64,000 bases of DNA from positions 30,814,001 to 30,878,000 of the forward strand of contig OZ024740.1 in assembly GCA_964016885.1 (NCBI GenBank), in the 5' to 3' direction. Shown here piece by piece: positions 1 through 47,169 of the stretch. This DNA is from Eledone cirrhosa (lineage: Eukaryota). Both the position numbers and the translations under genes were made by a program. Within the stretch, counting starts at the first letter, position 1, and each line of letters opens with the position of its first letter. Under the pieces are notes generated by a model that saw nothing but the letters and a program-made list of their open reading frames with translations, did no database searches and was not told where the DNA came from.

Positions 1-19
1 TAAAAAGAGACTGTTGTAG

Positions 20-1947: not shown

Positions 1948-3797
1948 CAGTGGCGTCTCGTGGCTAAAATTAGTGGGGATGCTGCTTCAGAAGGTTTTAG
2001 CCATTGTGTTGATATTGTGTAAAACGAAACAAACATAAAATGAAAATTTATACATAAACTTGGTAAAAACCTAAACGAAAAAAATATTTTTTACTCATAA
2101 ATTATTACAGTTCAAGCTTGATCCATTCATTTTATAATGAAATCCATTCTTCTTGTTTTACTTTGAGCGAAAAGGTTAATAATTTTCTCCTTGATCCCTG
2201 GACAACTGTTGAGAAAATATTTCTCCATTGAAAGCACTGTAAGTGCATTTAGTCTTTCAGGATTCATAGTGCTCCTTAGAAAAGTTTTTATTCTTTTCAG
2301 TGTAGAAAAGCAGCGTTCTGGCTCTGATCTAGTCATGGGAATTGTCAAGAGGATTTTTATCAGTTTCGTAATTTCACTAAGAATACCATTTAGATTATTT
2401 TCCAAGAAACATTTCAGTAACTCAATTAATTTGCAATATTCATGCACATCGGATCTCCAATAGAATACTTTTAGTTCAATTTCAAGCTTTTCTTTGTCAA
2501 TCATGGGATATGCTTCAGTGGTTAGTACTATCTCTTCTGTATGCAGTTCATTCTTAAAACTAGCGAAACTTTTCTTGTTGAATAACTTACCAATTACTAC
2601 GTGTTTATAATAACATATGCAGTCACTCACTTCCTTTGCTTCTGACATGGGTGTCTTTAAAGGATTCTCACAATACTTTGACTTACTTATTTCTAAAATA
2701 GCTGTTTTGAAATCTGTTATATATTCATTGACTTTAAACACACTAATTTCTCGAGATTTCATTTGGTTGTAAATTACTTCAACATGATGCATCATCTGAT
2801 AAAAAAAAAACGCTCTAACGAAAATATGAAATTATCATCATTCAGGGATTTTAAAATTCCTGTTGCTTCTGCAATGATTTGATCTGCATTTGATATTGAC
2901 TGAATTTCAGCTTTTTAAAGGTTGCCCATTTTCATGAACTCTGTTCACGGTCCGTATTTTAAACTTCCACCTTGTAGAGGATGGACATGGAATGCTAACG
3001 TCCATGTACTTCTTGAGATTGGATACACGTTGTGGTGGTCTTGAGAAGAATGTTGGAATAGCCAAAGTTTTAGAGAAAATTATTCTTGCGTTCCGTCTAA
3101 TACTAATAAAATTTCCACGGCTCATTGATTGAAAGTCTGTATGCCTTACTAACTTTCTCCTTAATATTTTCGTTTCCTAAAAGTGACAGTGAAACCGCAT
3201 TTTGATCATGTTTCTTTGACTTATCATGTTTTTCAAAACGGTCTTTTGTCCATGTTACATCACCTCCAGCAAACACCGGAAACACCGGAAGCAAAACAAT
3301 GCATGTTTCACTTCACAGCCGGAGAGCCAACATTTCCGTTGGCACCATTCAGAATTAAAGCTACGAATATACCTTTGTTGTGTCTTATTCCTGGCTAAAA
3401 TATTTGAATATCAAGTGTTGAACGGCCTCTTTTCTTAACTGTAACTTTCTCATGGAGAGACAACTGTGAAAACTTAAGCTGATGAAGTTCACTTACTTTC
3501 ACAGAACTTATTTCTTGGGGGTGCAAGGAAGACATGGTTAAATTATTTAAATTTTCTATACAATAAAACAACAGAAAAAAACTATGAACTAAATAGTATA
3601 GCTGGAAGCATGATAATCATCTACAGCAGGGGTGTGCAACATATTCCATTGGCGGGTTCCACACAGTTCCACACGAGGTTTTGGGTAATTTTTCACGAAC
3701 GAGGGTTTGGCTACTGGGCATTAAGCTTAAGGATTATATAATGTACAAGTATAAAGAAAGAATTAAAGAAAAAATGACTCATTATATTGAATTTTTC
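1948..3797 (-). mobile_element. hAT DNA transposon remnant (ZMYM1/Tip100-like), one TIR retained
   Basis: Starts with TIR CAGTGGCGTCTCGTG at 1948; contains a broken transposase; 3507-3797 matches 51831-52280, which ends in the complementary TIR. Confidence 0.8.
2127..3540 (-). pseudogene. Disrupted hAT transposase
   Basis: ORF 2127..2795 carries the hAT C-terminal dimerisation motif ILLTIPMTRSEPERCFSTLKRIKTFLRSTMNPERLNALTVLSME; upstream frames hold TTF-type Zn-finger-like remnants (WLSGCEVKHALFCF..., HDKSKKH); stops and frameshifts. Confidence 0.8.
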
Positions 3798-4263: not shown

Positions 4264-4418
4264 TGTGTGTGTGTGTGTATGCATATATACATATATATGT
4301 GCGTGCGTGTATATATATATATATATATATATATAGTAATAATAATAAATGTGAAGACTAAGATCCCGTTAAGGATGAAAGCAGCGATTCTTTGCATAAA
4401 CTTTAATCTGTTATTTTA

Positions 4419-4463
<45 letters not shown>

Positions 4464-5976: not shown

Positions 5977-8900
5977 TATGATGACCATATCTCCATGCGG
6001 CCCTGCCTATAATGAGCCATATCTCATGCGGCCCTGCCTATAATGATCCATATCTCATACGGCCCTGCCTATAATGAGCCATATCTCATGCGGCCCTGCC
6101 TATAATGAGCCATATCTCATGCGGCCTGGCCTATAATGAGCCATATCTCATGCGGCCTGGCCTATGATGAGCCATATCTCATGCGGCCCGGCCTATAATG
6201 AGCCATATCTCATGTGGCCTGGCCTATGATGAGCCATATCTCATGCGGCCCTGCTTATGATGAGCCATATCTCATGCGGCCCTGCCTATGATGAGCCATA
6301 TCTCATGCGGCCTGGCCTATGATGAGCCATATCTCATGTGGCCTGGCCTATGATGAGCCATATCTCATGCGGCCTGGTCTATGATGAGCCATATCTCATG
6401 CGGCCTGTCCTATAATGAGCCATATCTCATGCGGCCCTGCTTATGATGAGCCATATCTCATGCGGCCTGGCCTATGATGAGCCATATATCATGCGGCCCT
6501 GCCTATGATGAGCCATATCTCATGAGGCCTGGCCTATGATGAGCCATATCTCATGAGGCCTGGCCTATGATGAGCCATATCTCATGCGGCCCTGCTTATG
6601 ATGAGCCATATCTCATGCGGTCCTGTCTATAATGAGCCATATCTCATGCGGCCCTGCCTATGATGAGCCATATCTCATGCGGCCTGGCCTATGATGAGCC
6701 ATATCTCATGCGGCCTGGCCTATGATGAGCCATATCTCATGCGGCCCTGCTTATGATGAGCCATATCTCATGCGGCCCTGCCTATGATGAGCCATATCTC
6801 ATGCAGCCTGGCCTATGATGAGCCATATCTCATGCGGCCTGGCCTATGATGAGCCATATCTCATGCGGCCTGTCCTATGATGAGCCATATCTCATGCGGC
6901 CTGGCCTATGATGAGCCATATCGCATGTGGCCTGGCCTATGATAAGCCATATCTCATGCGGCCTGGCCTATGATGAGCCATATCTCATGCGGCTCAGCTT
7001 ATGATGAGCCATATCATGCGGCCTGGCCTATGATGAGCCATATCATGCGGCCTGGCCTATGATGAGCCATATCTCATGCGGCCTGGCCTATGATGAGCCA
7101 TATCTCATGCGGCCCTGCCTATAATGAGCCATATCTCATGCGGCCTGGCCTATGATGAGCCATATCTCATGCGCCCTGCCTATGATGAGCCATATCTCAT
7201 GCGGCCCTGCCTATAATGAGCCATATCGCATGTGGCCTGGCCTATGATAAGCCATATCTCATGCGGCCCTGCCTATGATGAGCCATATCTCATGCGGCCC
7301 TGCCTATAATGAGCCATATCGCATGTGGCCTGGCCTATGATAAGCCATATCTCATGCGGCCCTGCCTATGATGAGCCATATCTCATGCGGCCCTGCCTAT
7401 AATGAGCCATATCGCATGTGGCCTGGCCTATGATAAGCCATATCTCATGCGGCCCTGCCTATGATGAGCCATATCTCATGCGGCCCTGCCTATAATGAGC
7501 CATATCTCATGCGGCCCTGCCTATGATGAGCTATATCTCATGCGTCCCTGCCTATAATGAGCCATATCTCATGCGGCCTGGCCTATGATGAGCCATATCT
7601 CATGCGGCCCTGCCTATGATGAGCCCTATCTCATGCGGCCCTGCCTATGATGAGCCATATCTCATGCGGCCTGGCCTATGATGAGCCATAGCTCATGCGG
7701 CCCTGCCTATGATGAGCCATATCTCATGCGGCCTGGCCTATGATGAGCCATATCTCATGCGGCCTGGCCTATGATGAGCCATATCTCATGCGGCCCTGCC
7801 TATGATGAGCCATATCTCATGCGGCCTGGCCTATGATGAGCCATATCTCATGCGGCCCTGCCTATAATGAGCCATATCTCATGCGGCCTGGCCTATGATG
7901 AGCCATATCTCATGCGGCCTGTCCTATGATGAGCCATATCTCATGCGGCCTGGCCTATGATGAGCCATATCTCATGCTGCCTGGTTTATGATGAGCCATA
8001 TCTCATGCGGCCCTGCCTATGATGAGCCATATCTCATGCGGCCTGGCCTATGATGAGCCATATCTCATGCGGCCTGGCCTATGATGAGCCATATCTCATG
8101 CGGCCTGGCCTATGATGAGCCATATCTCATGCGGCCTGGCCTATAATGAGCCATATCTCATGCGGCCTGGCCTATGATGAGCCATATCTCATGCGGCCCT
8201 GCCTATGATGAGCCATATCTCATGCGGCCCTGCCTATGATGAGCCATATCTCATGCGGCCCTGCCTATGATGAGCCATATCTCATGCGGCCCTGCCTATG
8301 ATAAGCCATATCTCATGCGGCCCTGCCTATGATGAGCCATATCTCATGCGGCCCTGCCTATGATGAGCCATATCTCATGCGGCCCTGCCTATGATGAGCC
8401 ATATCTCATGCGGCCCTGCCTATGATGAGCCATATCTCATGCGGCCCTGCCTATGATGAGCCATATCTCATGCGGCCCTGCCTATGATGAGCCATATCTC
8501 ATGCGGCCCTGCCTATGATAAGCCATATCTCATGCGGCCTGGCCTATGATGAGCCATATCTCATGCGGCCCTGCCTATGATAAGCCATATCTCATGCGGC
8601 CCTGCCTATGATGAGCCATATCTCATGCGGCCCTGCCTATGATGAGCCATATCTCATGCGGCCCTGCCTATGATGAGCCATATCTCATGCGGCCTGGCCT
8701 ATGATGAGCCATATCATGCGGCCTGGCCTATGATGAGCCATATCATGCGGCCTGGCCTATGATGAGCCATATCTCATGCGGCCCTGCCTATGATGAGCCA
8801 TATCTCATGCGGCCTGGCCTATGATGAGCCATATCTCATGCGGCCCTGCCTATGATGAGCCATATCTCATGCGGCCTGGCCTATGATGAGCCATATCTCA

Positions 8901-9578
8901 TGCGGCCTGGCCTATGATGAGCCATATCTCATGCGGCCCTGCCTATGATGAGCCATATCTCATGCGGCCTGGCCTATGATGAGCCATATCTCATGCGGCC
9001 CTGCCTATGATGAGCCATATCTCATGCGGCCCTGCCTATGATGAGCCATATCTCATGCGGCCTGGCCTATGATGAGCCATATCATGCGGCCTGGCCTATG
9101 ATGAGCCATATCTCATGCGGCCCTGCCTATGATGAGCCATATCTCATGCGGCCCTGCCTATGATGAGCCATATCTCATGCTGCCTGGCCTAGGATGAGCC
9201 ATAGCTCATGCGGCCTGGCCTATGATGAGCCATATCATGCGGCCTGGCCTATGATGAGCCATATCTCATGCGGCCCTGCCTATGATGAGCCATATCTCAT
9301 GCGGCCTGGCCTATGATGAGCCATATCTCATGCGGCCCTGCCTATGATGAGCCATATCTCATGCGGCCTGGCCTATGATGAGCCATATCTCATGCGGCCC
9401 TGCCTATGATGAGCCATATCTCATGCGGCCCTGCCTATGATGAGCCATATCTCATGCGGCCTGGCCTATGATGAGCCATATCATGCGGCCTGGCCTATGA
9501 TGAGCCATATCTCATGCGGCCCTGCCTATGATGAGCCATATCTCATGCGGCCCTGCCTATGATGAGCCATATCTCATG
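5977..9578. repeat. 31-bp minisatellite, about 116 copies
   Basis: Unit TATGATGAGCCATATCTCATGCGGCC(CT/TG)GCC with period 31; occasional 29-bp variants lack a TC. Confidence 0.97.
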
Positions 9579-11479: not shown

Positions 11480-11590
<111 letters not shown>

Positions 11591-11654
11591 GAGGGTTTTT
11601 TTACAACATGAAAAATAACCGAGGTGTCCTACACGAGTGAAAGTATAAAGAAAA

Positions 11655-11929
11655 AAAGATAAAATCGAAAATGCAACTGGAGTCTTATTTTTAAAACAAA
11701 ATATATATTTATTTGGTTCCTTTACCGGTTTCACAGTTCTTCTGCTTTTCAAAAGTAGAGTTGAGATGGAGGGTCTGGTTTTTCTCACATCTGATGTGAG
11801 AAAAATCAGACCCTCCATCTCAACTCTACTTTTAAAAAGCAGAAGAACTGTGAAACCGGTAAAGGAACCAAATAAATATATATTTTGTTTTAAAAATAAG
11901 ACTCCAGTTGCATTTTCGATTTTATCTTT
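11655..11929. repeat. Near-perfect palindrome (137-bp arms, 1-nt centre at 11792) in a (TA)n-bounded insertion
   Basis: Arms are reverse complements with 2 mismatches; related single copy at about 28510-28675. Confidence 0.92.
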
Positions 11930-11950: not shown

Positions 11951-12128
11951 TAATGGTTTCTACTTTTGGTACAAGGCCAGCAATTCACCAATACATTACT
12001 GGTACTTTATTTTATCGACTCCGTAAAGATGAAAGGCAAATTAACCTCGGCGGGATTTTAACTCAGAATGGCAAGGACCGTAACTCTATGCTGCAAACAT
12101 GGCGTCCGACCCTCTACCGATACTGCCG
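11951..12128 (-). mobile_element. SINE family A
   Basis: Core and boxes as above. Confidence 0.85.
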
Positions 12129-12317
12129 GACGAATGGTGACTCCTTCATTACGTTTATTGGTTGGTGACTACTGATCAGCTCAAAGTTCGATCTGTGTCG
12201 ATCTGACCCGACTCTGGATTCAAACGCTCGTCGGACCACTGTGGTAGTAATGATTCTGATCAGTAGCGAAACGCGCGTCACCAACCAATAAACATAATGA
12301 AGGAGTAACCATTCATC

Positions 12318-12500
12318 CGGCAGTATTGGTAGAGGGTCGGTCGCCATGCTTTGCAGCATAGAGTTACGGCCCTTTATGATCTGAGTTCAAATCCCGCCGA
12401 AGTTAACTTTTCCTTTCATCCGTACGGGTTCGATAAAATAAAGTACCAGTAATACACTGAGATAATTGCTGGCCTTGTGCCAAAAGTAGAAACAATTATT
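12318..12500 (+). mobile_element. SINE family A
   Basis: Core and boxes as above. Confidence 0.85.
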
Positions 12501-13224: not shown

Positions 13225-13755
13225 GTGAATTCCGCCGAGGTTGACTTTGCCTTTCATCCTTACGGGGTCGATAAAATAAAGTACCAGTAATGTACTGGGT
13301 AATTGCTGACCTTGTGCCAAAAGTAGAAACAATTATTATGGCAGAATCGGTAGAGCGTGGGACAACATGCTTAGCGGCATAGAGTTATGGCCCTTTGCGT
13401 TCTGAGTTCAAATCCTCCCGAGGTTAGCTTTGCCTTTCATCCTTAGGGGGTTGATAAAATAAAGTACCGGCAACACGCAGGGGTCGATTTAATTGACTTG
13501 CCCCTCCCCAAAAATGTTGGCCTAAAGTAGAAACCATTATTTTTGGCAGAATCGGTAGAGCGTCGGACAACATGCTTTGCAGCATAGAGTTACGGCCCTT
13601 TACATCCGTAGTTCAAATCCCGCCGAGGTTAGCTTTGCCTTTCATCCTTACTAGGTCGATAAAATAAAGTACCAGTAGTGCATTGGGGTCGATTTAACCG
13701 ACTTTCCCCGCCATAAATTGCTGGCCTTGTTCCTAAATCAGAAACCATTATTTTT
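13225..13755 (+). mobile_element. Three head-to-tail SINE family A copies
   Basis: Core repeated at about 13250, 13430 and 13635, each followed by a GAAAC(A/C)ATTATT tail. Confidence 0.8.
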
Positions 13756-16693: not shown

Positions 16694-17406
16694 AGTGGAA
16701 GCTTAGTCAAATCGAAGCTTTGGCTGTGGCCAAGCTAACGACCTACAATTAGGAATGAGCAGCAAAGCACTCAATAAGGTTGCAGGCTTTAGAGTAATAA
16801 CATACGTATAGGCACCTTGATAAATTGAAAATTGCGGCAGGTAGACCTAGCCACACAATACCAAAAACAACGAAAAAACTAATCAGGTTTATATATATAT
16901 TTATTAAAATAACAGATTAAAGTTTAAGCAAAGAATCGCTGCTTTCACCTTTAACGGAATCTTCTGAAATAAAAATTTGCTCTAGGGTTCTTATATATTT
17001 GATATATATTTATCCTTATTGATTTGGATTTTAGTCTTCACATTTGTTATTATTACTATATATATATAATAAATCAAGAAAGAAGAGTGACATGGGTTGC
17101 TATACAATAAGGGCTTTATTCACATTGCTGAAAATTGTAGTGTAAAATAAAGTTAAATAAAAGTCAAATGATTAAAATTTAGCTTCGTTTATTATATATA
17201 TGATATATATATATATGATATATATATATGATATATATATGATATATATATATGATATATATATGATATATATATATGATATATATATATATATATGACT
17301 CCAGTTCCTCAGTGAATTAACAACCCAACAAGGAACTGGGCATAGATTATTGACAATATTATACACCTAAACAACATATGTACTTGTCTATACCATACTA
17401 ATTCAA

Positions 17407-17461
17407 ACTGCCTGAAGAGGTCACAGCCAAAGATAGCTGTCACTGAAATATATATAGCAGT
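17407..17461 (+). ncRNA. Type I hammerhead ribozyme motif (Penelope-like family, flank of the array)
   Basis: Stem I ACTGC/GCAGT; core CTGAAGA; stem II GGTCACAGC..GCTGTCACT; GAAA; stem III with self-complementary (TA) loop; AUA triplet. Confidence 0.7.
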
Positions 17462-17564
17462 AATAAACGAAGCTAAATTTTAATCATTTGACTTTTATTT
17501 AACTTTATTTTATATATATATGAAAGTATAGAAATTATTGTGAGCGTGAAGCCAACAGTATTTC

Positions 17565-17608
<44 letters not shown>

Positions 17609-17613
<5 letters not shown>

Positions 17614-20600
17614 AATTAAGTTAAAGATGTACATCCATATATGTATACTGAAATACTAGTATGTATATGAATACACACACGTATACATATGTAGATGTAC
17701 CAAGTTTTTTTCACTGGTCACTTTACTGTGAGTGGCCAGCTATTCTGTATGTAAACACACAGACAAACCGGTTTTTAGAGTCATACTGGTTTTTGAGGAA
17801 ACACCTTTCCTCTATTCTCCAGAAAGCCAGACAAGGAATATTGAACTAGTTTCGTTGTTGTTACAACTCATCAGCAATATTTACCTATCTTCCGGCCTCT
17901 CTAGAGAATCGTAAAAGCACATATCGTTATATGCTTTTTCTATGAAAATTAGTAGTGGGCAGACTAATCCGCACAGAGTGTGAGTAAGTACCGGTTCAAC
18001 GGAGACGATAAAAACAAATAACGAAACGAAATTAAATTTCGTTTCGTTTGTAACTCACTTTTGTATGACTGACGCTTAAACAATTAAGTTAAAGATGTAC
18101 ATCCATATATGTATACTGAAATACTAGTATGTATATGAATACACACACGTATACATATGTAGATGTACCAAGTTTTTTTCACTGGTCACTTTACTGTGAG
18201 TGGCCAGCTATTCTGTATGTAAACACACAGACAAACCGGTTTTTAGAGTCATACTGGTTTTTGAGGAAACACCTTTCCTCTATTCTCCAGAAAGCCAGAC
18301 AAGGAATATTGAACTAGTTTCGTTGTTGTTACAACTCATCAGCAATATTTACCTATCTTCCGGCCTCTCTAGAGAATCGTAAAAGCACATATCGTTATAT
18401 GCTTTTTCTATGAAAATTAGTAGTGGGCAGACTAATCCGCACAGAGTGTGAGTAAGTACCGGTTCAACGGAGACGATAAAAACAAATAACGAAACGAAAT
18501 TAAATTTCGTTTCGTTTGTAACTCACTTTTGTATGACTGACGCTTAAACAATTAAGTTAAAGATGTACATCCATATATGTATACTGAAATACTAGTATGT
18601 ATATGAATACACACACGTATACATATGTAGATGTACCAAGTTTTTTTCACTGGTCACTTTACTGTGAGTGGCCAGCTATTCTGTATGTAAACACACAGAC
18701 AAACCGGTTTTTAGAGTCATACTGGTTTTTGAGGAAACACCTTTCCTCTATTCTCCAGAAAGCCAGACAAGGAATATTGAACTAGTTTCGTTGTTGTTAC
18801 AACTCATCAGCAATATTTACCTATCTTCCGGCCTCTCTAGAGAATCGTAAAAGCACATATCGTTATATGCTTTTTCTATGAAAATTAGTAGTGGGCAGAC
18901 TAATCCGCACAGAGTGTGAGTAAGTACCGGTTCAACGGAGACGATAAAAACAAATAACGAAACGAAATTAAATTTCGTTTCGTTTGTAACTCACTTTTGT
19001 ATGACTGACGCTTAAACAATTAAGTTAAAGATGTACATCCATATATGTATACTGAAATACTAGTATGTATATGAATACACACACGTATACATATGTAGAT
19101 GTACCAAGTTTTTTTCACTGGTCACTTTACTGTGAGTGGCCAGCTATTCTGTATGTAAACACACAGACAAACCGGTTTTTAGAGTCATACTGGTTTTTGA
19201 GGAAACACCTTTCCTCTATTCTCCAGAAAGCCAGACAAGGAATATTGAACTAGTTTCGTTGTTGTTACAACTCATCAGCAATATTTACCTATCTTCCGGC
19301 CTCTCTAGAGAATCGTAAAAGCACATATCGTTATATGCTTTTTCTATGAAAATTAGTAGTGGGCAGACTAATCCGCACAGAGTGTGAGTAAGTACCGGTT
19401 CAACGGAGACGATAAAAACAAATAACGAAACGAAATTAAATTTCGTTTCGTTTGTAACTCACTTTTGTATGACTGACGCTTAAACAATTAAGTTAAAGAT
19501 GTACATCCATATATGTATACTGAAATACTAGTATGTATATGAATACACACACGTATACATATGTAGATGTACCAAGTTTTTTTCACTGGTCACTTTACTG
19601 TGAGTGGCCAGCTATTCTGTATGTAAACACACAGACAAACCGGTTTTTAGAGTCATACTGGTTTTTGAGGAAACACCTTTCCTCTATTCTCCAGAAAGCC
19701 AGACAAGGAATATTGAACTAGTTTCGTTGTTGTTACAACTCATCAGCAATATTTACCTATCTTCCGGCCTCTCTAGAGAATCGTAAAAGCACATATCGTT
19801 ATATGCTTTTTCTATGAAAATTAGTAGTGGGCAGACTAATCCGCACAGAGTGTGAGTAAGTACCGGTTCAACGGAGACGATAAAAACAAATAACGAAACG
19901 AAATTAAATTTCGTTTCGTTTGTAACTCACTTTTGTATGACTGACGCTTAAACAATTAAGTTAAAGATGTACATCCATATATGTATACTGAAATACTAGT
20001 ATGTATATGAATACACACACGTATACATATGTAGATGTACCAAGTTTTTTTCACTGGTCACTTTACTGTGAGTGGCCAGCTATTCTGTATGTAAACACAC
20101 AGACAAACCGGTTTTTAGAGTCATACTGGTTTTTGAGGAAACACCTTTCCTCTATTCTCCAGAAAGCCAGACAAGGAATATTGAACTAGTTTCGTTGTTG
20201 TTACAACTCATCAGCAATATTTACCTATCTTCCGGCCTCTCTAGAGAATCGTAAAAGCACATATCGTTATATGCTTTTTCTATGAAAATTAGTAGTGGGC
20301 AGACTAATCCGCACAGAGTGTGAGTAAGTACCGGTTCAACGGAGACGATAAAAACAAATAACGAAACGAAATTAAATTTCGTTTCGTTTGTAACTCACTT
20401 TTGTATGACTGACGCTTAAACAATTAAGTTAAAGATGTACATCCATATATGTATACTGAAATACTAGTATGTATATGAATACACACACGTATACATATGT
20501 AGATGTACCAAGTTTTTTTCACTGGTCACTTTACTGTGAGTGGCCAGCTATTCTGTATGTAAACACACAGACAAACCGGTTTTTAGAGTCATACTGGTTT

Positions 20601-20815
20601 TTGAGGAAACACCTTTCCTCTATTCTCCAGAAAGCCAGACAAGGAATATTGAACTAGTTTCGTTGTTGTTACAACTCATCAGCAATATTTACCTATCTTC
20701 CGGCCTCTCTAGAGAATCGTAAAAGCACATATCGTTATATGCTTTTTCTATGAAAATTAGTAGTGGGCAGACTAATCCGCACAGAGTGTGAGTAAGTACC
20801 GGTTCAACGGAGACG
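17609..20815 (-). repeat. Left arm of the 468-bp hammerhead-containing tandem array (about 6.85 units)
   Basis: Exact 468-bp period, with identical ORF-track translations every 468 bp; hammerhead on minus strand at 17837-17881 and every 468 bp after (7 copies). Confidence 0.97.
17837..17881 (-). ncRNA. Type I hammerhead ribozyme (first of 7 minus-strand copies)
   Basis: Reverse complement reads AATATTG-CTGATGA-GTTGT-AACA-ACAAC-GAAA-CTAG-TT-CAATATT. Confidence 0.88.
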
Positions 20816-23800
20816 CTGTGCGGATTAGTCTGCCCACTACTAATTTTCATAGAAAAAGCATATAACGATATGTGCTTTTACGATTCTCTAGAGAGGCCGG
20901 AAGATAGGTAAATATTGCTGATGAGTTGTAACAACAACGAAACTAGTTCAATATTCCTTGTCTGGCTTTCTGGAGAATAGAGGAAAGGTGTTTCCTCAAA
21001 AACCAGTATGACTCTAAAAACCGGTTTGTCTGTGTGTTTACATACAGAATAGCTGGCCACTCACAGTAAAGTGACCAGTGAAAAAAACTTGGTACATCTA
21101 CATATGTATACGTGTGTGTATTCATATACATACTAGTATTTCAGTATACATATATGGATGTACATCTTTAACTTAATTGTTTAAGCGTCAGTCATACAAA
21201 AGTGAGTTACAAACGAAACGAAATTTAATTTCGTTTCGTTATTTGTTTTTATCGTCTCCGTTGAACCGGTACTTACTCACACTCTGTGCGGATTAGTCTG
21301 CCCACTACTAATTTTCATAGAAAAAGCATATAACGATATGTGCTTTTACGATTCTCTAGAGAGGCCGGAAGATAGGTAAATATTGCTGATGAGTTGTAAC
21401 AACAACGAAACTAGTTCAATATTCCTTGTCTGGCTTTCTGGAGAATAGAGGAAAGGTGTTTCCTCAAAAACCAGTATGACTCTAAAAACCGGTTTGTCTG
21501 TGTGTTTACATACAGAATAGCTGGCCACTCACAGTAAAGTGACCAGTGAAAAAAACTTGGTACATCTACATATGTATACGTGTGTGTATTCATATACATA
21601 CTAGTATTTCAGTATACATATATGGATGTACATCTTTAACTTAATTGTTTAAGCGTCAGTCATACAAAAGTGAGTTACAAACGAAACGAAATTTAATTTC
21701 GTTTCGTTATTTGTTTTTATCGTCTCCGTTGAACCGGTACTTACTCACACTCTGTGCGGATTAGTCTGCCCACTACTAATTTTCATAGAAAAAGCATATA
21801 ACGATATGTGCTTTTACGATTCTCTAGAGAGGCCGGAAGATAGGTAAATATTGCTGATGAGTTGTAACAACAACGAAACTAGTTCAATATTCCTTGTCTG
21901 GCTTTCTGGAGAATAGAGGAAAGGTGTTTCCTCAAAAACCAGTATGACTCTAAAAACCGGTTTGTCTGTGTGTTTACATACAGAATAGCTGGCCACTCAC
22001 AGTAAAGTGACCAGTGAAAAAAACTTGGTACATCTACATATGTATACGTGTGTGTATTCATATACATACTAGTATTTCAGTATACATATATGGATGTACA
22101 TCTTTAACTTAATTGTTTAAGCGTCAGTCATACAAAAGTGAGTTACAAACGAAACGAAATTTAATTTCGTTTCGTTATTTGTTTTTATCGTCTCCGTTGA
22201 ACCGGTACTTACTCACACTCTGTGCGGATTAGTCTGCCCACTACTAATTTTCATAGAAAAAGCATATAACGATATGTGCTTTTACGATTCTCTAGAGAGG
22301 CCGGAAGATAGGTAAATATTGCTGATGAGTTGTAACAACAACGAAACTAGTTCAATATTCCTTGTCTGGCTTTCTGGAGAATAGAGGAAAGGTGTTTCCT
22401 CAAAAACCAGTATGACTCTAAAAACCGGTTTGTCTGTGTGTTTACATACAGAATAGCTGGCCACTCACAGTAAAGTGACCAGTGAAAAAAACTTGGTACA
22501 TCTACATATGTATACGTGTGTGTATTCATATACATACTAGTATTTCAGTATACATATATGGATGTACATCTTTAACTTAATTGTTTAAGCGTCAGTCATA
22601 CAAAAGTGAGTTACAAACGAAACGAAATTTAATTTCGTTTCGTTATTTGTTTTTATCGTCTCCGTTGAACCGGTACTTACTCACACTCTGTGCGGATTAG
22701 TCTGCCCACTACTAATTTTCATAGAAAAAGCATATAACGATATGTGCTTTTACGATTCTCTAGAGAGGCCGGAAGATAGGTAAATATTGCTGATGAGTTG
22801 TAACAACAACGAAACTAGTTCAATATTCCTTGTCTGGCTTTCTGGAGAATAGAGGAAAGGTGTTTCCTCAAAAACCAGTATGACTCTAAAAACCGGTTTG
22901 TCTGTGTGTTTACATACAGAATAGCTGGCCACTCACAGTAAAGTGACCAGTGAAAAAAACTTGGTACATCTACATATGTATACGTGTGTGTATTCATATA
23001 CATACTAGTATTTCAGTATACATATATGGATGTACATCTTTAACTTAATTGTTTAAGCGTCAGTCATACAAAAGTGAGTTACAAACGAAACGAAATTTAA
23101 TTTCGTTTCGTTATTTGTTTTTATCGTCTCCGTTGAACCGGTACTTACTCACACTCTGTGCGGATTAGTCTGCCCACTACTAATTTTCATAGAAAAAGCA
23201 TATAACGATATGTGCTTTTACGATTCTCTAGAGAGGCCGGAAGATAGGTAAATATTGCTGATGAGTTGTAACAACAACGAAACTAGTTCAATATTCCTTG
23301 TCTGGCTTTCTGGAGAATAGAGGAAAGGTGTTTCCTCAAAAACCAGTATGACTCTAAAAACCGGTTTGTCTGTGTGTTTACATACAGAATAGCTGGCCAC
23401 TCACAGTAAAGTGACCAGTGAAAAAAACTTGGTACATCTACATATGTATACGTGTGTGTATTCATATACATACTAGTATTTCAGTATACATATATGGATG
23501 TACATCTTTAACTTAATTGTTTAAGCGTCAGTCATACAAAAGTGAGTTACAAACGAAACGAAATTTAATTTCGTTTCGTTATTTGTTTTTATCGTCTCCG
23601 TTGAACCGGTACTTACTCACACTCTGTGCGGATTAGTCTGCCCACTACTAATTTTCATAGAAAAAGCATATAACGATATGTGCTTTTACGATTCTCTAGA
23701 GAGGCCGGAAGATAGGTAAATATTGCTGATGAGTTGTAACAACAACGAAACTAGTTCAATATTCCTTGTCTGGCTTTCTGGAGAATAGAGGAAAGGTGTT

Positions 23801-26800
23801 TCCTCAAAAACCAGTATGACTCTAAAAACCGGTTTGTCTGTGTGTTTACATACAGAATAGCTGGCCACTCACAGTAAAGTGACCAGTGAAAAAAACTTGG
23901 TACATCTACATATGTATACGTGTGTGTATTCATATACATACTAGTATTTCAGTATACATATATGGATGTACATCTTTAACTTAATTGTTTAAGCGTCAGT
24001 CATACAAAAGTGAGTTACAAACGAAACGAAATTTAATTTCGTTTCGTTATTTGTTTTTATCGTCTCCGTTGAACCGGTACTTACTCACACTCTGTGCGGA
24101 TTAGTCTGCCCACTACTAATTTTCATAGAAAAAGCATATAACGATATGTGCTTTTACGATTCTCTAGAGAGGCCGGAAGATAGGTAAATATTGCTGATGA
24201 GTTGTAACAACAACGAAACTAGTTCAATATTCCTTGTCTGGCTTTCTGGAGAATAGAGGAAAGGTGTTTCCTCAAAAACCAGTATGACTCTAAAAACCGG
24301 TTTGTCTGTGTGTTTACATACAGAATAGCTGGCCACTCACAGTAAAGTGACCAGTGAAAAAAACTTGGTACATCTACATATGTATACGTGTGTGTATTCA
24401 TATACATACTAGTATTTCAGTATACATATATGGATGTACATCTTTAACTTAATTGTTTAAGCGTCAGTCATACAAAAGTGAGTTACAAACGAAACGAAAT
24501 TTAATTTCGTTTCGTTATTTGTTTTTATCGTCTCCGTTGAACCGGTACTTACTCACACTCTGTGCGGATTAGTCTGCCCACTACTAATTTTCATAGAAAA
24601 AGCATATAACGATATGTGCTTTTACGATTCTCTAGAGAGGCCGGAAGATAGGTAAATATTGCTGATGAGTTGTAACAACAACGAAACTAGTTCAATATTC
24701 CTTGTCTGGCTTTCTGGAGAATAGAGGAAAGGTGTTTCCTCAAAAACCAGTATGACTCTAAAAACCGGTTTGTCTGTGTGTTTACATACAGAATAGCTGG
24801 CCACTCACAGTAAAGTGACCAGTGAAAAAAACTTGGTACATCTACATATGTATACGTGTGTGTATTCATATACATACTAGTATTTCAGTATACATATATG
24901 GATGTACATCTTTAACTTAATTGTTTAAGCGTCAGTCATACAAAAGTGAGTTACAAACGAAACGAAATTTAATTTCGTTTCGTTATTTGTTTTTATCGTC
25001 TCCGTTGAACCGGTACTTACTCACACTCTGTGCGGATTAGTCTGCCCACTACTAATTTTCATAGAAAAAGCATATAACGATATGTGCTTTTACGATTCTC
25101 TAGAGAGGCCGGAAGATAGGTAAATATTGCTGATGAGTTGTAACAACAACGAAACTAGTTCAATATTCCTTGTCTGGCTTTCTGGAGAATAGAGGAAAGG
25201 TGTTTCCTCAAAAACCAGTATGACTCTAAAAACCGGTTTGTCTGTGTGTTTACATACAGAATAGCTGGCCACTCACAGTAAAGTGACCAGTGAAAAAAAC
25301 TTGGTACATCTACATATGTATACGTGTGTGTATTCATATACATACTAGTATTTCAGTATACATATATGGATGTACATCTTTAACTTAATTGTTTAAGCGT
25401 CAGTCATACAAAAGTGAGTTACAAACGAAACGAAATTTAATTTCGTTTCGTTATTTGTTTTTATCGTCTCCGTTGAACCGGTACTTACTCACACTCTGTG
25501 CGGATTAGTCTGCCCACTACTAATTTTCATAGAAAAAGCATATAACGATATGTGCTTTTACGATTCTCTAGAGAGGCCGGAAGATAGGTAAATATTGCTG
25601 ATGAGTTGTAACAACAACGAAACTAGTTCAATATTCCTTGTCTGGCTTTCTGGAGAATAGAGGAAAGGTGTTTCCTCAAAAACCAGTATGACTCTAAAAA
25701 CCGGTTTGTCTGTGTGTTTACATACAGAATAGCTGGCCACTCACAGTAAAGTGACCAGTGAAAAAAACTTGGTACATCTACATATGTATACGTGTGTGTA
25801 TTCATATACATACTAGTATTTCAGTATACATATATGGATGTACATCTTTAACTTAATTGTTTAAGCGTCAGTCATACAAAAGTGAGTTACAAACGAAACG
25901 AAATTTAATTTCGTTTCGTTATTTGTTTTTATCGTCTCCGTTGAACCGGTACTTACTCACACTCTGTGCGGATTAGTCTGCCCACTACTAATTTTCATAG
26001 AAAAAGCATATAACGATATGTGCTTTTACGATTCTCTAGAGAGGCCGGAAGATAGGTAAATATTGCTGATGAGTTGTAACAACAACGAAACTAGTTCAAT
26101 ATTCCTTGTCTGGCTTTCTGGAGAATAGAGGAAAGGTGTTTCCTCAAAAACCAGTATGACTCTAAAAACCGGTTTGTCTGTGTGTTTACATACAGAATAG
26201 CTGGCCACTCACAGTAAAGTGACCAGTGAAAAAAACTTGGTACATCTACATATGTATACGTGTGTGTATTCATATACATACTAGTATTTCAGTATACATA
26301 TATGGATGTACATCTTTAACTTAATTGTTTAAGCGTCAGTCATACAAAAGTGAGTTACAAACGAAACGAAATTTAATTTCGTTTCGTTATTTGTTTTTAT
26401 CGTCTCCGTTGAACCGGTACTTACTCACACTCTGTGCGGATTAGTCTGCCCACTACTAATTTTCATAGAAAAAGCATATAACGATATGTGCTTTTACGAT
26501 TCTCTAGAGAGGCCGGAAGATAGGTAAATATTGCTGATGAGTTGTAACAACAACGAAACTAGTTCAATATTCCTTGTCTGGCTTTCTGGAGAATAGAGGA
26601 AAGGTGTTTCCTCAAAAACCAGTATGACTCTAAAAACCGGTTTGTCTGTGTGTTTACATACAGAATAGCTGGCCACTCACAGTAAAGTGACCAGTGAAAA
26701 AAACTTGGTACATCTACATATGTATACGTGTGTGTATTCATATACATACTAGTATTTCAGTATACATATATGGATGTACATCTTTAACTTAATTGTTTAA

Positions 26801-26861
26801 GCGTCAGTCATACAAAAGTGAGTTACAAACGAAACGAAATTTAATTTCGTTTCGTTATTTG

Positions 26862-26868
<7 letters not shown>
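20816..26868 (+). repeat. Right arm of the 468-bp hammerhead-containing tandem array (about 12.9 units)
   Basis: Reverse complement of the left-arm unit; hammerhead on plus strand at 20911-20955 and every 468 bp after (13 copies). Confidence 0.97.
20911..20955 (+). ncRNA. Type I hammerhead ribozyme (first of 13 plus-strand copies)
   Basis: Stem I AATATTG/CAATATT (7 bp); CUGAUGA 20918-20924; stem II GTTGT/ACAAC with AACA loop; GAAA 20939-20942; short palindromic stem III (AACTAGTT); GUU triplet, predicted cut after 20948. Confidence 0.88.
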
Positions 26869-26910
<42 letters not shown>

Positions 26911-26955
26911 AAGTTAAATAAAAAGTCAAATGATTAAAATTTAGCTTCGTTTATT

Positions 26956-27010
26956 ACTGCTATATATATTTCAGTGACAGCCATCTTTGGCTGTGACCTC
27001 TTCAGGCAGT
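26956..27010 (-). ncRNA. Type I hammerhead motif, inverted copy of 17407-17461
   Basis: Same sequence as 17407-17461 with one substitution next to loop 2; lies in an inverted copy (26903-27125) of 17293-17510. Confidence 0.7.
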
Positions 27011-28079
27011 TTGAATTAGTATGGTATAGACAAGTACATATGTTGTTGAGGTGTATAATATTGTCAATACTCTGATATGCCCAGTTGCTGGTTGGGTTGT
27101 TATTTCACTGAGGAACTGGAATCATATGAATTCAAACAAATGAATTTCAGTGTCAAAGGTCCTCTTCTCCTCTCATTGGTCAGTTATTAGAACATTCCTC
27201 ATTCTAAGTGTTGTTATTGTTGGAGTTAGCTTAAAAAATTGATAAAATGGTAGAAGGGACAAGGTGTTAAAGGAACAAAATAACAAAAAAAGTGTCAAAC
27301 TTCCCATTGGTCAGTTCTGAGAGCATTCCTCAGTCAGAAGTCTATAGAATTCTTTCTGGGATGAGGCTCCCTGTAGTGTTTTTGTTTGCTACAAATACTT
27401 TTTCCCATTTCCCACTCTACTACCCTAAGTATTAAGTACTCTGGTACGTTATGGTCCATCTGGTTCCTTACCACATTTCCTTTGTTATATATATATAGAT
27501 ATATATATATACGTGAAAAAATGGGGAGAAGAATACTGCTGGTTGCACATGGATAACATGTAATAAAATAATATAAGTCCCTCATCAGTGATTTGCCGAC
27601 GATCATAGATATTTCATTGCATTAAAAATCATATACCTCACGTCGGTGCAATAATAACTAAATTAAGTTATTAGGACAATTAAAGCGCGTAAAGCGAGTG
27701 AGACGAGATAACAACAAAGAGGATAGCTAACCGTAGAAAGAAGGAGACAAGCTTCATAGTTATTCTGTTAGCGTAAGCTAGGTGAATATATGAGCGCTTA
27801 GAAAATAGACCTTTCAGCAGCGAATTCAAATGTGAGTGAGAGAGAAAATGATTTCGTCGCGAACGGGGTGAAGTGAGAAGAGGAGAAACAGTGAGTGAGT
27901 GAGTGAGTGGAAGTGTGAGGAAGAGTTAACGGACATGACAGAGGGGGCGAAAGAAAGTAGGAGAAACAGAGGGAGCAGTAAGAGAGAGAGAGAAAAAAAC
28001 AGAAGCGCAGTATAGGTAAATATACGTGAAAAAATGGGGAGAAGAATACTGCTAGTTGCACATGGATAACATGTAATAA

Positions 28080-28163: not shown

Positions 28164-28669
28164 GTGTGTGTGTGTATAGTAATAATAATAATAAACGTGA
28201 AGACTAAGATCCAAAGAGTTTCAGAAGATCCCGTTAAAGGTGAAAGCAGCGATTCTTTGCTTTAACTTTAATCTGTTATTTTAATAAATATATATGTATA
28301 ACGAAATTTTTTTCAATCCCCGAAATAATAACAAACAAACGCTCGATTTGTTTCGGTCGATCTCGTTTTAAAGAATCTTTCGTTACAAGGGATTTTTTAT
28401 ACCCCATGAATTTCGTTATAACGGAATTTTACTGTATATATATATGTGTGTGTGAGTATAAATATTTAAATATATATATATGTATGTGTGTATGTGTGTG
28501 TTAGCATATACATGTGAGACAAACCACAAACCCTCCATCTCAATTTTACTTTTGAAAAGCATAAAAACTGAAACCGGTAAAGGAAATAAATAAATATTCT
28601 TAAAAAGACTCCAGTTGCATTTTCAATTTTACTTTTTCTTTTGTTTTTTTTTAATAAAAAAACCCTCAT

Positions 28670-28758
<89 letters not shown>

Positions 28759-36332: not shown

Positions 36333-36558
36333 TATAAATTACACAAATATCAAAGTTATGTTCAAATCATTTAATTGCTGACAATTGTTTCTTCCAAACT
36401 TTCGTTTGGAGTCATCAGAACATTATCAATGTTTGTACATATAATTAACCTCTTATTAATAGTGATAATGCTCCGATGACTCCAAACGAAAGTTTGGAAG
36501 AAACAATTGTCAGCAATTAAATGATTTGAACATAACTTTGATATTTGTGTAATTTATA
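36333..36558. repeat. Palindrome (about 96-bp arms, 34-bp spacer) with a hammerhead motif in each arm
   Basis: Arms 36333-36428 and 36463-36558 are reverse complements with 2 mismatches. Confidence 0.92.
36376..36422 (-). ncRNA. Minimal type I hammerhead ribozyme
   Basis: TGTT-CTGATGA-C-TCCAAAC-GAAA-GTTTGGA-A-GAAAC-AATT-GTC-AGCA; palindromic AATT loop 3, GUC triplet; the mirror copy at 36469-36515 has CCGATGA. Confidence 0.75.
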
Positions 36559-36683
36559 TTCCTGCTCTGTAAAACACCTGATGGTCGTACATTGAGCTAT
36601 TTCCCTTACTGGTGATAAGGTAGTAATAAATTACTGACCATTCCTGTTTATAGTATATACATAACTATAAATAATATAATTAT

Positions 36684-36768
<85 letters not shown>

Positions 36769-36806
36769 TATATTTATATATATACATGGTGGCTGCCAAC
36801 TCGTTT

Positions 36807-38063
36807 GAATGTCGCATCATATCACTCCGACAACATCTACGAACCTCGAAGCGTAGGAGCCCGTTTCTCGAGCAAGTCTATATGCATAAAACAGATAAGA
36901 TCATGAGAGTTGGGAAGGAACTCCTTGAGAGATATTCTCTGTGTGATAATCAAAAACTCACACCCAGGGATGTCGCTCAGCAGTATCGCAGTGAATCCAT
37001 GGATGAAAAACTGCATGTCTATCAGCAAAAAATCATCCATGGATATGTTGCCAGGAAGCTCCAGAGTGAGAGGAATATAGATAAAGAAAGTAGTCTATCT
37101 TGGACCGACAACCGCTATATTGGCTCCCACTTTGAAGGATACGCTTTTGCAATCCAAGAACAGGAGATTAGCACGAAATACCTGATTCACAAAAGAGATA
37201 GGGATGCAGGCAAAACACCTAGATGTGATAACAGGTGCAGACTCTGCAGAACTAACATCGAGGATATCACCCATGTCATCAGCAGCTGTCCAAAGATGTC
37301 ATCGCGGTACTATCTACCTATGAGGCAGGATGTAGTGGCCAAAACACTGTACAATGCAGTTCGTAAAAAAGATAGCCCCGATAATAAACACATTAAAAGC
37401 TACAGCAATGTGGAAGACATCCATGTACATAATATGAAAGAGTACTGGTGGAATGTTCCAGTAAAAACCTCAATCAAATGCAGGCATTACAGACCAGATA
37501 TTATGATATGGGACAGGGAGAAGAAAACATGCACAGTAGTGGAAATTAGCTGCCCAGCAGATGCCAATATAATATCAAAGATTAGTGAAAAGGAGAATAT
37601 TTATGCAGAACTGATGAGAAATCTGCAGATACTCCACCCTGATTACACCTTCAGATTTATGGCTGTGATTATTGGGGCACTGGGATATGTTAGTAACTGC
37701 CTCAATACAAATCTTGAGAAGCAAGGCTTCACAGGAACAGAAAGAACACAACTAGTTAGGAAATTACAAGTACAATCCATTAATGGAACAGTAAAAATAT
37801 GTAAAGCATTCCAAAAATGTTGCATCTAATAACTGCATATACACATGTACAGATACAAAGCATATACACATGCACACATACAACTCAAAACATACACATC
37901 CACACATACAATAACATCCATATCTACACATGCATGCATACATACATATCTACCTAGTTGATGTTGTGTAAATTCCAATGAGAGAGTCCGACTCTCTCTC
38001 TATTGGTAAAACTTTGTGAAATTATAAAACCAGCAGAACATACATACATACTTACATACATAC
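36807..38063 (+). mobile_element. 5'-truncated RLE-type non-LTR retrotransposon (R4/Dong-like)
   Basis: ORF 36786..37829 has CCHC knuckle CRLC...ITHVISSC and PD-(D/E) nuclease RPDIMIWD...VVEISCP; (ACAT)n tail; 25-bp flanking direct repeat at 36782-36806 and 38064-38088. Confidence 0.85.
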
Positions 38064-39935: not shown

Positions 39936-41038
39936 TTTCTGGCTTGCTGCTTTCTGAGTTCAAATCGCACAGATGTCAACTTGGTATTTCATCCTTTCGA
40001 GGTCGATAAAAAAGTACCAGTTCAGTTCTGGGGACCGACCCCCCCCCCCTCTCTCTCTCCTTCGTCGTATTTTTCTTTCCCTCCCTCCTTATCTTCCTCT
40101 TCTTCTGGAAGAAATGGGTTGTGTCCAGGTTTGTAAAGAGGATGGTCTACGCTATGATTAATGTGTCTAAGGCTCGCTGTATGTCATGACGGTGCACATA
40201 CAACTCCATAGTAACCCTGGTATATAAAACAACAGGATATCCGCAATTGAAAGGTCTTTGAGCATAGGTTTACTCAATGAGGTCTTATCTAAAGAACGTT
40301 ATTGTTGTTATTATTACTAGATGAGGGCGACGTCTTCTCTCTCTGTCTCTCTCTCTCTATTTATGTACATCTCTTTCACTTGACGCTCCCCTCTCTATAT
40401 AGAGATGAAGGTGACGTCATCACGTTCTGTCTATCTACCCCTTTTTGACACAGCGTTCCATTTTCTATATCTATGTACATATCTCTCGCTTGGCGCTCCC
40501 CCTCTCTATATAATGTGAGCGTGGCGGACGGACGGACGCATAGACAACTATCTTATAATATAGATTACTGTTGTTGTTTAGACGTAGGTGTCAATTCTAC
40601 TCAAGTAGATCTATGATCACAAGGCATTACATCTGTCAGCCATCTGTCTTTAGGAAGAGTGTCTCGGACACAACGTATTTAGGACCACATTATCCAATAC
40701 AGCCTCCCTTTTTTTATTCAAGGAATATTTCGCTATCATTTCTAGCAAGACGAGTGACAAAGCAGAAGGCTCTTATCAAAATTATCTCTGCGTGTGTCAT
40801 TATGTCATTATAATTCTCTCTGAATGTGTCATATTTCTGACGTCAGCTTCTATGACACTTCATTTTAAACAGGAAATTGTTACTTTTGTTTAATTCTTAG
40901 GAAAGAAATCAGATTTTGCTTTTATTTTTACTCTATAAGATCTTTCAGTAAGAGGTAGGTAATAAAACTGACAGTAATTGGCAGCGTTTTTTTAAAATAT
41001 CAAATGTAAAATACAAGTATTATATGAATCGAAAAAAA

Positions 41039-41140
41039 TCCCACCGAGGTTAACTTTGCCTTTCATCCTTACGGGGTCGATAAAATAAAGTACCAGTAAT
41101 GCACTGGGTAATTGATGGCCTTGTGCCAAAAATAGAAACA
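41039..41140 (+). mobile_element. 5'-truncated SINE family A with target-site duplication
   Basis: Flanked by ATTATATGAATCGAAAAAAA on both sides. Confidence 0.85.
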
Positions 41141-41202
41141 ATTATATGAATCGAAAAAAAGAGGTGGTGGATTAACAGAATTAGTAGAGCGTCAGATATA
41201 AT

Positions 41203-41551
41203 TGTTTCTACTTTTGGCACAAGGCCAGCAATTACCCAGTGCATTACTGGTACTTTATTTTATCGACCCCGTAAGGATGAAAGGCAAAGTTAATCTCGGC
41301 AGGATTTGAACTCAGAATGGCAAGAGCCGTAACTCTATGCTGGAAAGCATGGCGTCCGACCCTCTACCGATACTGCCAAACATGGTGTCCGACCCTCTAC
41401 CGATACTGCCAATCATGGTGTCCCACCCTCTACCGATACTGCCAATCATGGTGTCCCACCCTCTACCGATATTGCCAATCATGGTGTCCCACCCTCTACC
41501 GATACTGCCAATCATGGTGTCCCACCCTCTACCGATACTGCCAATCCACTG
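41203..41551 (-). mobile_element. SINE family A with six tandem 33-bp head repeats
   Basis: TSD GTAGAGCGTCAGATATAAT at 41184-41202 and 41552-41570; 33-bp repeat spans 41348-41545. Confidence 0.9.
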
Positions 41552-42464: not shown

Positions 42465-42470
<6 letters not shown>

Positions 42471-42720
42471 TAAAATAACAGATTAAAGTTTAAGCAAAGA
42501 ATCGCTGCTTTCACCCTTAACGGGATCTTCTGAAACTAACAAAGTCAATCTGTAAACGCAGAAGTGAATATTTCAAAGAACGTAGCAACCGGAGGAAGAC
42601 AGGAAGACGATACTTTGGTTCGTGGAAACGTTCCGAGGCAAAGAACGGGAAAAAAAGAATATATATTTATCCTTATCGAGCCCTCTTTGGATTTTAGTCT
42701 TCAAATTTATTATTATTACT
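42465..42720. mobile_element. (TA)n-inserted interspersed repeat
   Basis: Related copies at about 4335-4425, 16900-17060 and 28180-28290, each adjacent to (TA)n. Confidence 0.7.
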
Positions 42721-46858: not shown

Positions 46859-47169
46859 GAAAATACATAAAATAACACAATACTACTTACTTCTACGGCT
46901 TTCTGGTTTAGAAAAGAAATGTTTATTACTTCTACAGATAAATAACGTTCAAATTGTTTTTAATTCTTACAGAATGAAAATATAAACACATATAATACAA
47001 TTAATACTTCATAGTTGCACAAACAACATTACAAATAGTTTGCAATTCCTTCAGAATGGAAATATAAATAGAGCATATAAATAATTTTACAGTAGAATAA
47101 CATAAATATGTTTTAAATATATACATAAATAACATTACAAATGCCTCGGTAACACTACAAAGGATGATA

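What the first reader, a model, noticed from the sequence alone, without database searches (positions are those of the whole stretch)
17609..23991. Array inversion makes a 3.2-kb-arm palindrome; both outer ends join (TA)n through TGTTT plus microhomology
Seen: orientation flips at 20815/20816, leaving a 31-bp spacer (20785-20815) between arms 17609-20784 and 20816-23991. On the hammerhead-sense strand both 3' ends point outward and end similarly: ...TTAATTGTTTA then (TA)n on the left, ...TTATTTGTTTTTAT then (AT)n on the right. Established: twin priming during target-primed reverse transcription gives head-to-head inversions. Inference: both strands of a cut (TA)n tract primed cDNA on the same circular or multimeric RNA. 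Read-through transcription would give kb-long dsRNA.
Basis: partly seen in the sequence, partly recalled or inferred. Interest (0 to 1): 0.72.

Follow-up and report, generated by a model that had tools for sequence, protein, structure and literature searches.

The report
Twin-primed inverted hammerhead retrozyme array
About twenty identical copies of a small ribozyme-carrying mobile element sit back-to-back in an AT repeat, and the exact fit of their breakpoints suggests that both cut DNA strands copied the same RNA, a clue to how such elements insert.

Summary
The palindrome is real: arms 17609-20784 and 20816-23991 are exact reverse complements around a 31-bp spacer. The element is longer than stated. 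It runs 17609-26868: 19.8 identical 468-bp units, each with a type I hammerhead fold, 6.85 units on the minus strand and 12.93 on the plus strand, with (TA)n at both ends. It fits an animal non-LTR retrozyme. New test: the left arm's 5' boundary (unit base 438) is the base right after the right arm's 3' end (437), the collision point twin priming predicts. Chance is 0.4-1.5%, so one shared RNA template is the best reading (about 0.6). Head-to-head arms, (TA)n targets and a one-sided tail are already described for Penelope-like elements. Three older inserts in this window share that layout and a fourth has one end on (TA)n, which argues against an artefact, but their arms overlap rather than abut. 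TGTTT is not a general motif. dsRNA needs outside read-through. Circle versus linear multimer, the partner enzyme, cleavage and read support are untested. Verdict: a new variant of a known kind, one informative example.

The parts
17609..20815 (-). Left arm of the retrozyme array: 3,207 bp, 6.85 units, 7 hammerheads. On the sense strand it starts at unit base 438 (20815) and ends at base 368 (17609).
20816..26868 (+). Right arm: 6,053 bp, 12.93 units, 13 hammerheads. Starts at unit base 1 (20816), ends at base 437 (26868).
20785..20815 (-). 31-bp palindrome spacer = unit bases 438-468 of the left arm; blunt junction to the right arm.
20816..21283 (+). One 468-bp unit: 35.7% GC, no stop-free frame over 65 aa, strongly self-paired (z -9.5 linear, -8.8 circular).
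20900..20971 (+). Type I hammerhead (first right-arm copy): helix I 7 bp plus extension, helix II 5 bp, one-pair helix III with palindromic loop, GUU triplet; predicted cut after 20948 (unit base 133).
   Evidence: Rfam HH9 37.7 bits, E 1.2e-7, below gathering score 52; descriptor scan; position
26800..26868 (+). 69-nt 'tail' (unit bases 369-437) that separates the two priming sites; holds a 13-bp hairpin (bases 397-425) followed by a U-rich stretch.
17568..17610 (.). Left (TA)n target tract, 43 nt; 2 nt shared with the array end.
26866..26905 (.). Right (TA)n target tract, 40 nt; 3 nt shared with the array end.
17297..17510 (+). Flanking older element 'E', left copy, with a minimal-type hammerhead (17407-17461); its 3' end joins (TA)5 and points toward the array.
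   Evidence: no Rfam ribozyme match at E<=0.5
26906..27123 (-). Flanking element 'E', right copy, 95% identical to the left one; hammerhead at 27010-26956; its 3' end shares the right (TA)n tract and points toward the array.
17069..17194 (-). Short inverted E arm (52 bp) plus 74-nt tail ending at (TA)6; with the left E copy it forms an older head-to-head insert.

Best explanation
The locus is one very young insertion of an animal non-LTR retrozyme. SHOWN: 19.8 identical hammerhead-bearing units, two head-to-head arms, both 3' ends in (TA)n, and the left arm stopping at the base next to the right arm's priming site. INFERRED: a trans-acting retroelement protein, most likely Penelope-like (PLE), cut both strands of a (TA)n tract. 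The left 3' end primed cDNA at unit base 368 and copied 6.85 units. The right 3' end paired with bases 435-437 of the same RNA, immediately ahead of the first cDNA, which stopped at base 438. The second cDNA ran 12.93 units, and the two cDNA ends were joined blunt. The template was a rolling 468-nt circle or an uncut multimer of about 20 units; which one is open.
For: Exact abutment 437|438: chance 2/468 (0.4%) strict, 7/468 (1.5%) allowing for microhomology. In L1 twin priming 66% of inversion junctions are deleted and 17% duplicated, leaving about 17% with neither, so shared template is favoured about 10-40 fold over independent arms (my arithmetic). No difference among the units over 9,260 bp, as a single template would give. 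Microhomology at both outer ends, none at the centre. PLE insertions often carry an inverted 5'-truncated copy and a one-sided tail, with (TA)n bias for Naiad and a microsatellite bias discussed for Neptune (PMC8557442 passages). A purified PLE protein nicks and extends both strands of AT-rich DNA and starts at two internal RNA sites (PMC11167929). 4 of 5 close inverted pairs in my census outside the array have one outer end directly on a (TA)>=5 tract, against about 1% per side at random positions.
Against: One event only. In the three older inserts with (TA)n at both ends the arms overlap by about 50-150 nt instead of abutting. Base 438 lies just downstream of a hairpin and U-run, so it may be a natural stop or RNA end, which would inflate the coincidence. 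No GIY-YIG/PLE protein was found: 0 of 105 stop-free frames >=75 aa outside tandem arrays (of 144 in the window) hit such a Pfam family. PAc initiation needs no homology to the target, unlike the microhomology invoked here. The tail (69 nt) is longer than the 30-40 bp described. No target-site duplication can be read in (TA)n. The hammerhead is below Rfam's gathering score and untested.
Confidence: 0.6

Rival explanations
1. Same TPRT-type insertion, but the arms were made on separate RNA molecules (for example by a PLE dimer), or 437|438 is a real RNA processing or stop site. In the second case a 20-unit RNA ran from 438 to 437, was primed at its 3' end and internally at 368, and lost 100 nt at the inversion point.
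For: In inserts E, G (11583-11928) and 36337-36686 both arms cover the same sequence, which one pass over one monomer RNA cannot give without strand displacement. PAc is predicted to be a dimer and acts on both strands. A hairpin and T5 run precede base 437.
Against: The only ribozyme found cuts at 133|134, not 437|438. Without a preferred stop at 438 the abutment has 0.4-1.5% chance.
Confidence: 0.2
2. An ordinary head-to-tail array was inserted first; a later DNA-level inversion of its 12.9-unit part produced the palindrome.
For: A balanced DNA inversion also leaves 437|438 adjacent. (TA)n tracts and tandem arrays are fragile (general knowledge).
Against: No (TA)n remnant or microhomology at the central junction. 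The array is too young to show one difference among units. The new outer end is U-rich with TA microhomology, like the other element ends in the window.
Confidence: 0.1
3. Assembly or library artefact: fold-back or chimeric reads joined two arrays, or consensus building homogenised the units.
For: Perfect 3.2-kb palindromes and identical tandem units are hard to sequence and assemble (general knowledge); no reads were available. Copy numbers may be wrong even if the junction is right.
Against: The arms differ in length and end point. Inverted flank homology is confined to a 95%-identical ~230-bp element and an 80-bp repeat fragment. A chimera has no reason to break at the base next to the far end's terminus. 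Older, diverged examples of the same layout lie in the window.
Confidence: 0.06
4. Self-priming (fold-back) of one cDNA, as proposed for head-to-head PLE inversions in Adineta vaga.
For: Proposed in PMC3846280 (passages); insert G folds with a 1-nt spacer.
Against: 0 nt terminal homology for a fold-back in either direction; the left cDNA (6.85 units) is too short to template the right arm (12.93 units); the abutment is unexplained.
Confidence: 0.04

Closest known systems
Animal non-LTR retrozymes (Cervera and de la Pena 2020, PMC7229834; Li et al. 2026, bioRxiv 10.64898/2026.07.22.740005)
   Same: Non-coding tandem units under 50% GC, a type I hammerhead with weak palindromic helix III in every unit, strongly self-paired monomer; proposed rolling-circle reverse transcription by PLEs.
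   Different: Unit of 468 bp is slightly above the 150-450 bp first given but within 51-972 bp. The array is inverted head-to-head and sits in (TA)n; 'inverted', 'inversion' and 'microsatellite' do not occur in the 2020 main text, and the 2026 preprint has no passage on it. GUU triplet.
Penelope-like elements with endonuclease (Penelope/Poseidon, Neptune, Naiad; PMC8557442, PMC3846280, PMC11167929)
   Same: Partial tandems, inverted 5'-truncated copy at the 5' end, tail on one side, AT-rich or (TA)n targets, two internal priming sites, both strands extended in vitro.
   Different: No ORF here; both arms are long multimers; tail 69 nt, not 30-40; the tandem phase lets the abutment be read; published explanation for head-to-head forms is self-priming.
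L1 twin priming (Ostertag and Kazazian 2001, seen only as cited; figures from bioRxiv 10.1101/2024.08.27.596794)
   Same: Two target 3' ends prime on one RNA; head-to-head inversion; one arm's 5' boundary lies at the other's priming site.
   Different: No poly(A); both primings appear internal; the upstream-primed arm is the longer one here (in L1 the poly(dT) arm averages 2.6-fold longer); centre junction blunt; template may be circular.
Newt satellite 2 / axolotl HHR_Amex1 repeats
   Same: Single-pair helix III capped by a palindromic tetraloop, expected to cleave as a dimer.
   Different: Different sequence and length; cleavage untested here.

Membership tests
Non-LTR retrozyme | Type I hammerhead fold in every tandem unit | tested here: met
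   20 of 20 copies match the descriptor (13 plus, 7 minus); Rfam HH9 E 1.2e-7 but 37.7 bits, below gathering 52
Non-LTR retrozyme | Head-to-tail units of a few hundred bp, GC under 50% | tested here: met
   468 bp, 35.7% GC
Non-LTR retrozyme | No protein coding | tested here: met
   longest stop-free frame 65 aa in six frames of a unit dimer
Non-LTR retrozyme | Highly self-paired monomer | tested here: met
   z -9.5 against 100 shuffles; circular fold z -8.8 against 40 shuffles, 66% paired
Non-LTR retrozyme | Self-cleavage and accumulation as circular RNA | not testable with these tools
   needs in vitro transcription and RNA data; GUU triplet may be slow, and 8 of 9 Xenopus dimers did not cleave
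Non-LTR retrozyme | Target-site duplication longer than 4 bp when present | tested here: inconclusive
   both flanks are (TA)n, so a duplication cannot be read
PLE-mobilised insertion | Inverted 5'-truncated copy adjoining the 5' end | tested here: met
PLE-mobilised insertion | 30-40 bp tail on one end only | tested here: inconclusive
   one-sided extension present but 69 nt
PLE-mobilised insertion | Cognate PLE (RT plus GIY-YIG) sharing pLTR sequence with the unit | not testable with these tools
   none in this window (0 of 105 frames); rest of the genome unavailable
Autonomous PLE | RT and GIY-YIG ORF inside the element | tested here: not met
   no ORF in the unit
Twin priming (L1 sense) | One arm's 5' boundary at or near the other arm's priming site | tested here: met
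   438 follows 437 exactly
Twin priming (L1 sense) | Primer-RNA microhomology at the internal priming site | tested here: met
   3 nt; P(>=3 nt)=0.10, so weak alone
Twin priming (L1 sense) | Microcomplementarity between the two cDNA ends | tested here: not met
   0 nt at 20815/20816
Twin priming (L1 sense) | Poly(A) tail and L1 endonuclease site at the first-primed end | tested here: not met
   both ends are U-rich and join (TA)n; it works like twin priming but is not an L1-type product

The most novel reading that the evidence does not exclude
The array is the fossil of a primer swap on one rolling circle: a PLE-type reverse transcriptase went 6.85 times round a 468-nt retrozyme circRNA from one target strand, handed over at base 438/437 to the opposite strand's 3' end, and went 12.93 more turns. 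On a circle already coated with cDNA the only free RNA lies just ahead of the enzyme, which would make exact abutment the rule. Retrozyme arrays would then be a phase-marked record of how PLE-type head-to-head inversions form.
Probability: 0.25. Interest if true: 0.72.

Novelty: new variant of a known kind. Interest (0 to 1): 0.5.

Why it matters
How Penelope-like elements make tandem/inverted insertions is called an open question in PMC8557442, and PLE mobilisation of animal retrozymes rests on co-occurrence and sequence kinship. A retrozyme array carrying the PLE integration layout is a direct-style footprint of that partnership. Because the units are identical, the phase of four breakpoints can be read, which gives a cheap genome-wide test between one template, two templates and self-priming. 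A perfect 3.2-kb palindrome may also be unstable or, with read-through, a dsRNA source; both flanking E copies point inward, but that is speculation.

Tried and rejected
Rfam at gathering threshold: 0 matches in the window; the miRNA-family hits at relaxed threshold reflect generic hairpins. Other copies of the unit in the window: none beyond microsatellite-like matches. Exact 26-nt hammerhead pattern in GTDB genomes: 0 (uninformative for an animal element). TGTTT as a conserved motif: rejected (0 of 10 other ends). Array ends at the ribozyme site: rejected (ends at 1, 368, 437, 438; cut at 133|134). Allelic fold of two haplotypes: rejected, since inverted flank homology is limited to E and an 80-bp fragment of another repeat. 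Partner in the window: only RTE-like RT frames, a hAT fragment and frames I read as REL-type by recalled motifs; no GIY-YIG. A dimer fold of the hammerhead gave a long intermolecular helix through helices III and I rather than a clean active core; not informative on activity. The sigma-70 scan is irrelevant to an animal and was used only for the hairpin coordinates. PMC12602865, PMC8490949, PMC12350158 and bioRxiv 10.1101/2024.12.14.628481 (passages) added nothing used beyond the general description of twin priming.
Full report
Observation. They are part of a longer tandem array of period 468: 6.9 copies at 17609-20815 and 12.9 copies at 20816-26868. All 12 full right units, the partial 13th, and the left units match the first unit without a difference up to the (TA)n boundaries. 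With unit base 1 at 20816, the right arm runs 1 to 437 and the left arm, read on the minus strand, runs 438 to 368. Microhomology with (TA)n is 2 nt left and 3 nt right; the centre is blunt.

What the unit is. Rfam finds nothing at gathering thresholds, but at relaxed threshold HH9 matches 20900-20971 with E 1.2e-7. A type I descriptor finds the core in 20 places in the array, 13 plus and 7 minus. Helix III is one pair capped by a palindromic loop, the form described for newt and axolotl repeats that cleave as dimers (PMC7229834, parts 2-4 of 6 read; PMC4209133 passages). The triplet is GUU and the predicted cut is after unit base 133. The unit is 35.7% GC, has no frame over 65 aa and folds far better than shuffles. 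This meets the testable features of an animal non-LTR retrozyme. The host is probably a marine invertebrate: of two named animal hits for a nearby retroelement frame, the better is Octopus bimaculoides at 58% identity, which is a hint only.

The informative junction. Twin priming predicts that the first cDNA stops where the second primer has annealed. Here the right target end can pair with bases 435-437 and the left arm stops at 438. Two pairings were possible, so chance is 2/468, or 7/468 allowing for microhomology. In L1, 66% of such junctions carry a short deletion and 17% a duplication (bioRxiv 10.1101/2024.08.27.596794 passages). A shared template is therefore favoured roughly 10-40 fold over independent arms, unless 438 is a preferred stop. 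That caveat is real: a 13-bp hairpin and a U-run lie just upstream. The same arithmetic also fits a 20-unit RNA with both ends at 437|438, but the only ribozyme found cuts elsewhere.

Context in the window. My census of close inverted pairs outside the array found 5; 4 have one outer end directly on a (TA)>=5 tract and the other 73-184 nt from the next tract, against about 1% per side at random positions. One search lists two more close pairs that the census missed (12095-12351, 41036-41307); these and the fifth pair belong to an abundant dispersed ~180-bp family and are not TA-linked, so the full count is 4 of 7. Three of the four have (TA)n at both ends with a one-sided extension: G (11583-11928, tail 61 nt), E (17069-17510, tail 74 nt) and 36337-36686 (about 127 nt). 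E carries a hammerhead with long helix II and 5-bp helix I, like the minimal motifs of PLE repeats, though Rfam does not see it. This makes the layout a recurring product in this genome, not a one-off artefact. Against my reading, the arms of all three overlap rather than abut. TGTTT was absent from 10 of 10 other ends.

What is known. PLE insertions often have an inverted 5'-truncated copy at the 5' end and a 30-40 bp tail, with (TA)n bias in Naiads and a microsatellite bias discussed for Neptune; the authors call the formation of these structures unresolved (PMC8557442 passages). Head-to-head is the commonest inverted form in Adineta vaga and was ascribed to self-priming (PMC3846280 abstract and passages). 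Purified PAc nicks and extends both strands, starts at two internal sites, and uses uncleaved RNA as main substrate (PMC11167929, parts 1-2 of 4). Animal retrozymes are argued to be non-autonomous PLE derivatives (bioRxiv 10.64898/2026.07.22.740005, parts 1-3 of 5). I found no report of twin priming or inverted arrays for retrozymes: 'twin priming' plus 'Penelope' gave 3 papers whose titles and abstract openings concern human or mammalian elements (listing only); none of 30 listed of 77 papers used 'twin priming'; 'retrozyme' plus 'inverted' gave 15 papers, 12 listed (listing only); none of 25 listed of 3,047 mentioned retrozymes. The library lacks most subscription papers, and I saw no supplements; supplementary figures of the retrozyme papers may show such arrays.

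Mechanism. Shown: anatomy, identity of units, junction phases. Inferred: double-strand cut in (TA)n by a PLE-type protein; first priming at 368 from the left end; second priming at 435-437 from the right end on the same RNA; blunt joining of the cDNA ends. Confidence 0.6, with separate templates or a preferred stop at 0.2, later DNA inversion 0.1, artefact 0.06 and fold-back 0.04. No partner was found among 105 of 144 stop-free frames of 75 aa or more (39 in tandem arrays left out). Circle versus linear multimer is open: identical units suit a circle, while a possibly slow GUU ribozyme would let multimers persist.

dsRNA. A transcript crossing the centre would form a perfect 3.2-kb hairpin, but it must come from outside, because the arms point away from each other in the ribozyme sense. 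Both flanking E copies point inward; whether they carry promoters is unknown.

Verdict. Real feature, a new retrozyme family member with a PLE-style inverted insertion and an unusually clean twin-priming signature. One example, so interest 0.5.

Noticed in passing
window 11583-11928 and 28512-28673: Family G: 148-bp arms with a 1-nt spacer between two (TA)n tracts, 61-nt tail on one side; a single copy begins at the same 5' point and ends at the tail end. No hammerhead found by my descriptor.
   Followed up: partly
window 36337-36686 and 50543-50908: Two more diverged head-to-head palindromes (102 and 130-bp arms) with an outer end on (TA)n.
   Followed up: partly
window 4336-4422, 16901-17056, 28179-28290, 42467-42719: Family F: four copies with the same two ends, (TA)n at or next to both ends, and different middles (87-253 bp); MITE-like deletion series or truncated two-arm inserts.
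   Followed up: partly
window 17193-17296: An 11-13-bp TA-rich minisatellite fills the centre of the E head-to-head insert and seems built from E's 5' end.
   Followed up: no
window 17522-17567: 46-bp segment between two (TA)n tracts with short inverted ends; origin unknown.
   Followed up: no
window 17609-17630, 17490-17512, 28255-28290: A TT(T/A)AACTT-like motif lies shortly before the short 3' end of three unrelated TA-joined families (array, E, F); possible recognition signal, not tested statistically.
   Followed up: no
window 55689-58718 (-): 1,009-aa frame with AP endonuclease, RT and a PHD-like insert; RTE-like by recalled features; partial copies at 54908-55435 and 58891-59718.
   Followed up: partly
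window 36675-37829 (+) and 47431-48921 (-): Fragments of non-LTR elements with zinc-knuckle and restriction-like endonuclease motifs (recalled); the first starts right after a (TA)n tract and could be a rival microsatellite-targeting partner.
   Followed up: partly
window 2127-2831 (-): hAT transposase C-terminal fragment.
   Followed up: no
window 18-197 and about 15 other sites: Abundant ~180-bp dispersed SINE-like family, 80-95% identical, including a 205-bp tandem dimer at 13316-13709.
   Followed up: no
window 5977-9578, 46282-46859, 53603-54321, 60143-64000: Minisatellites of 31, 57, 60 and 22 bp; no hammerhead core found in them.
   Followed up: no
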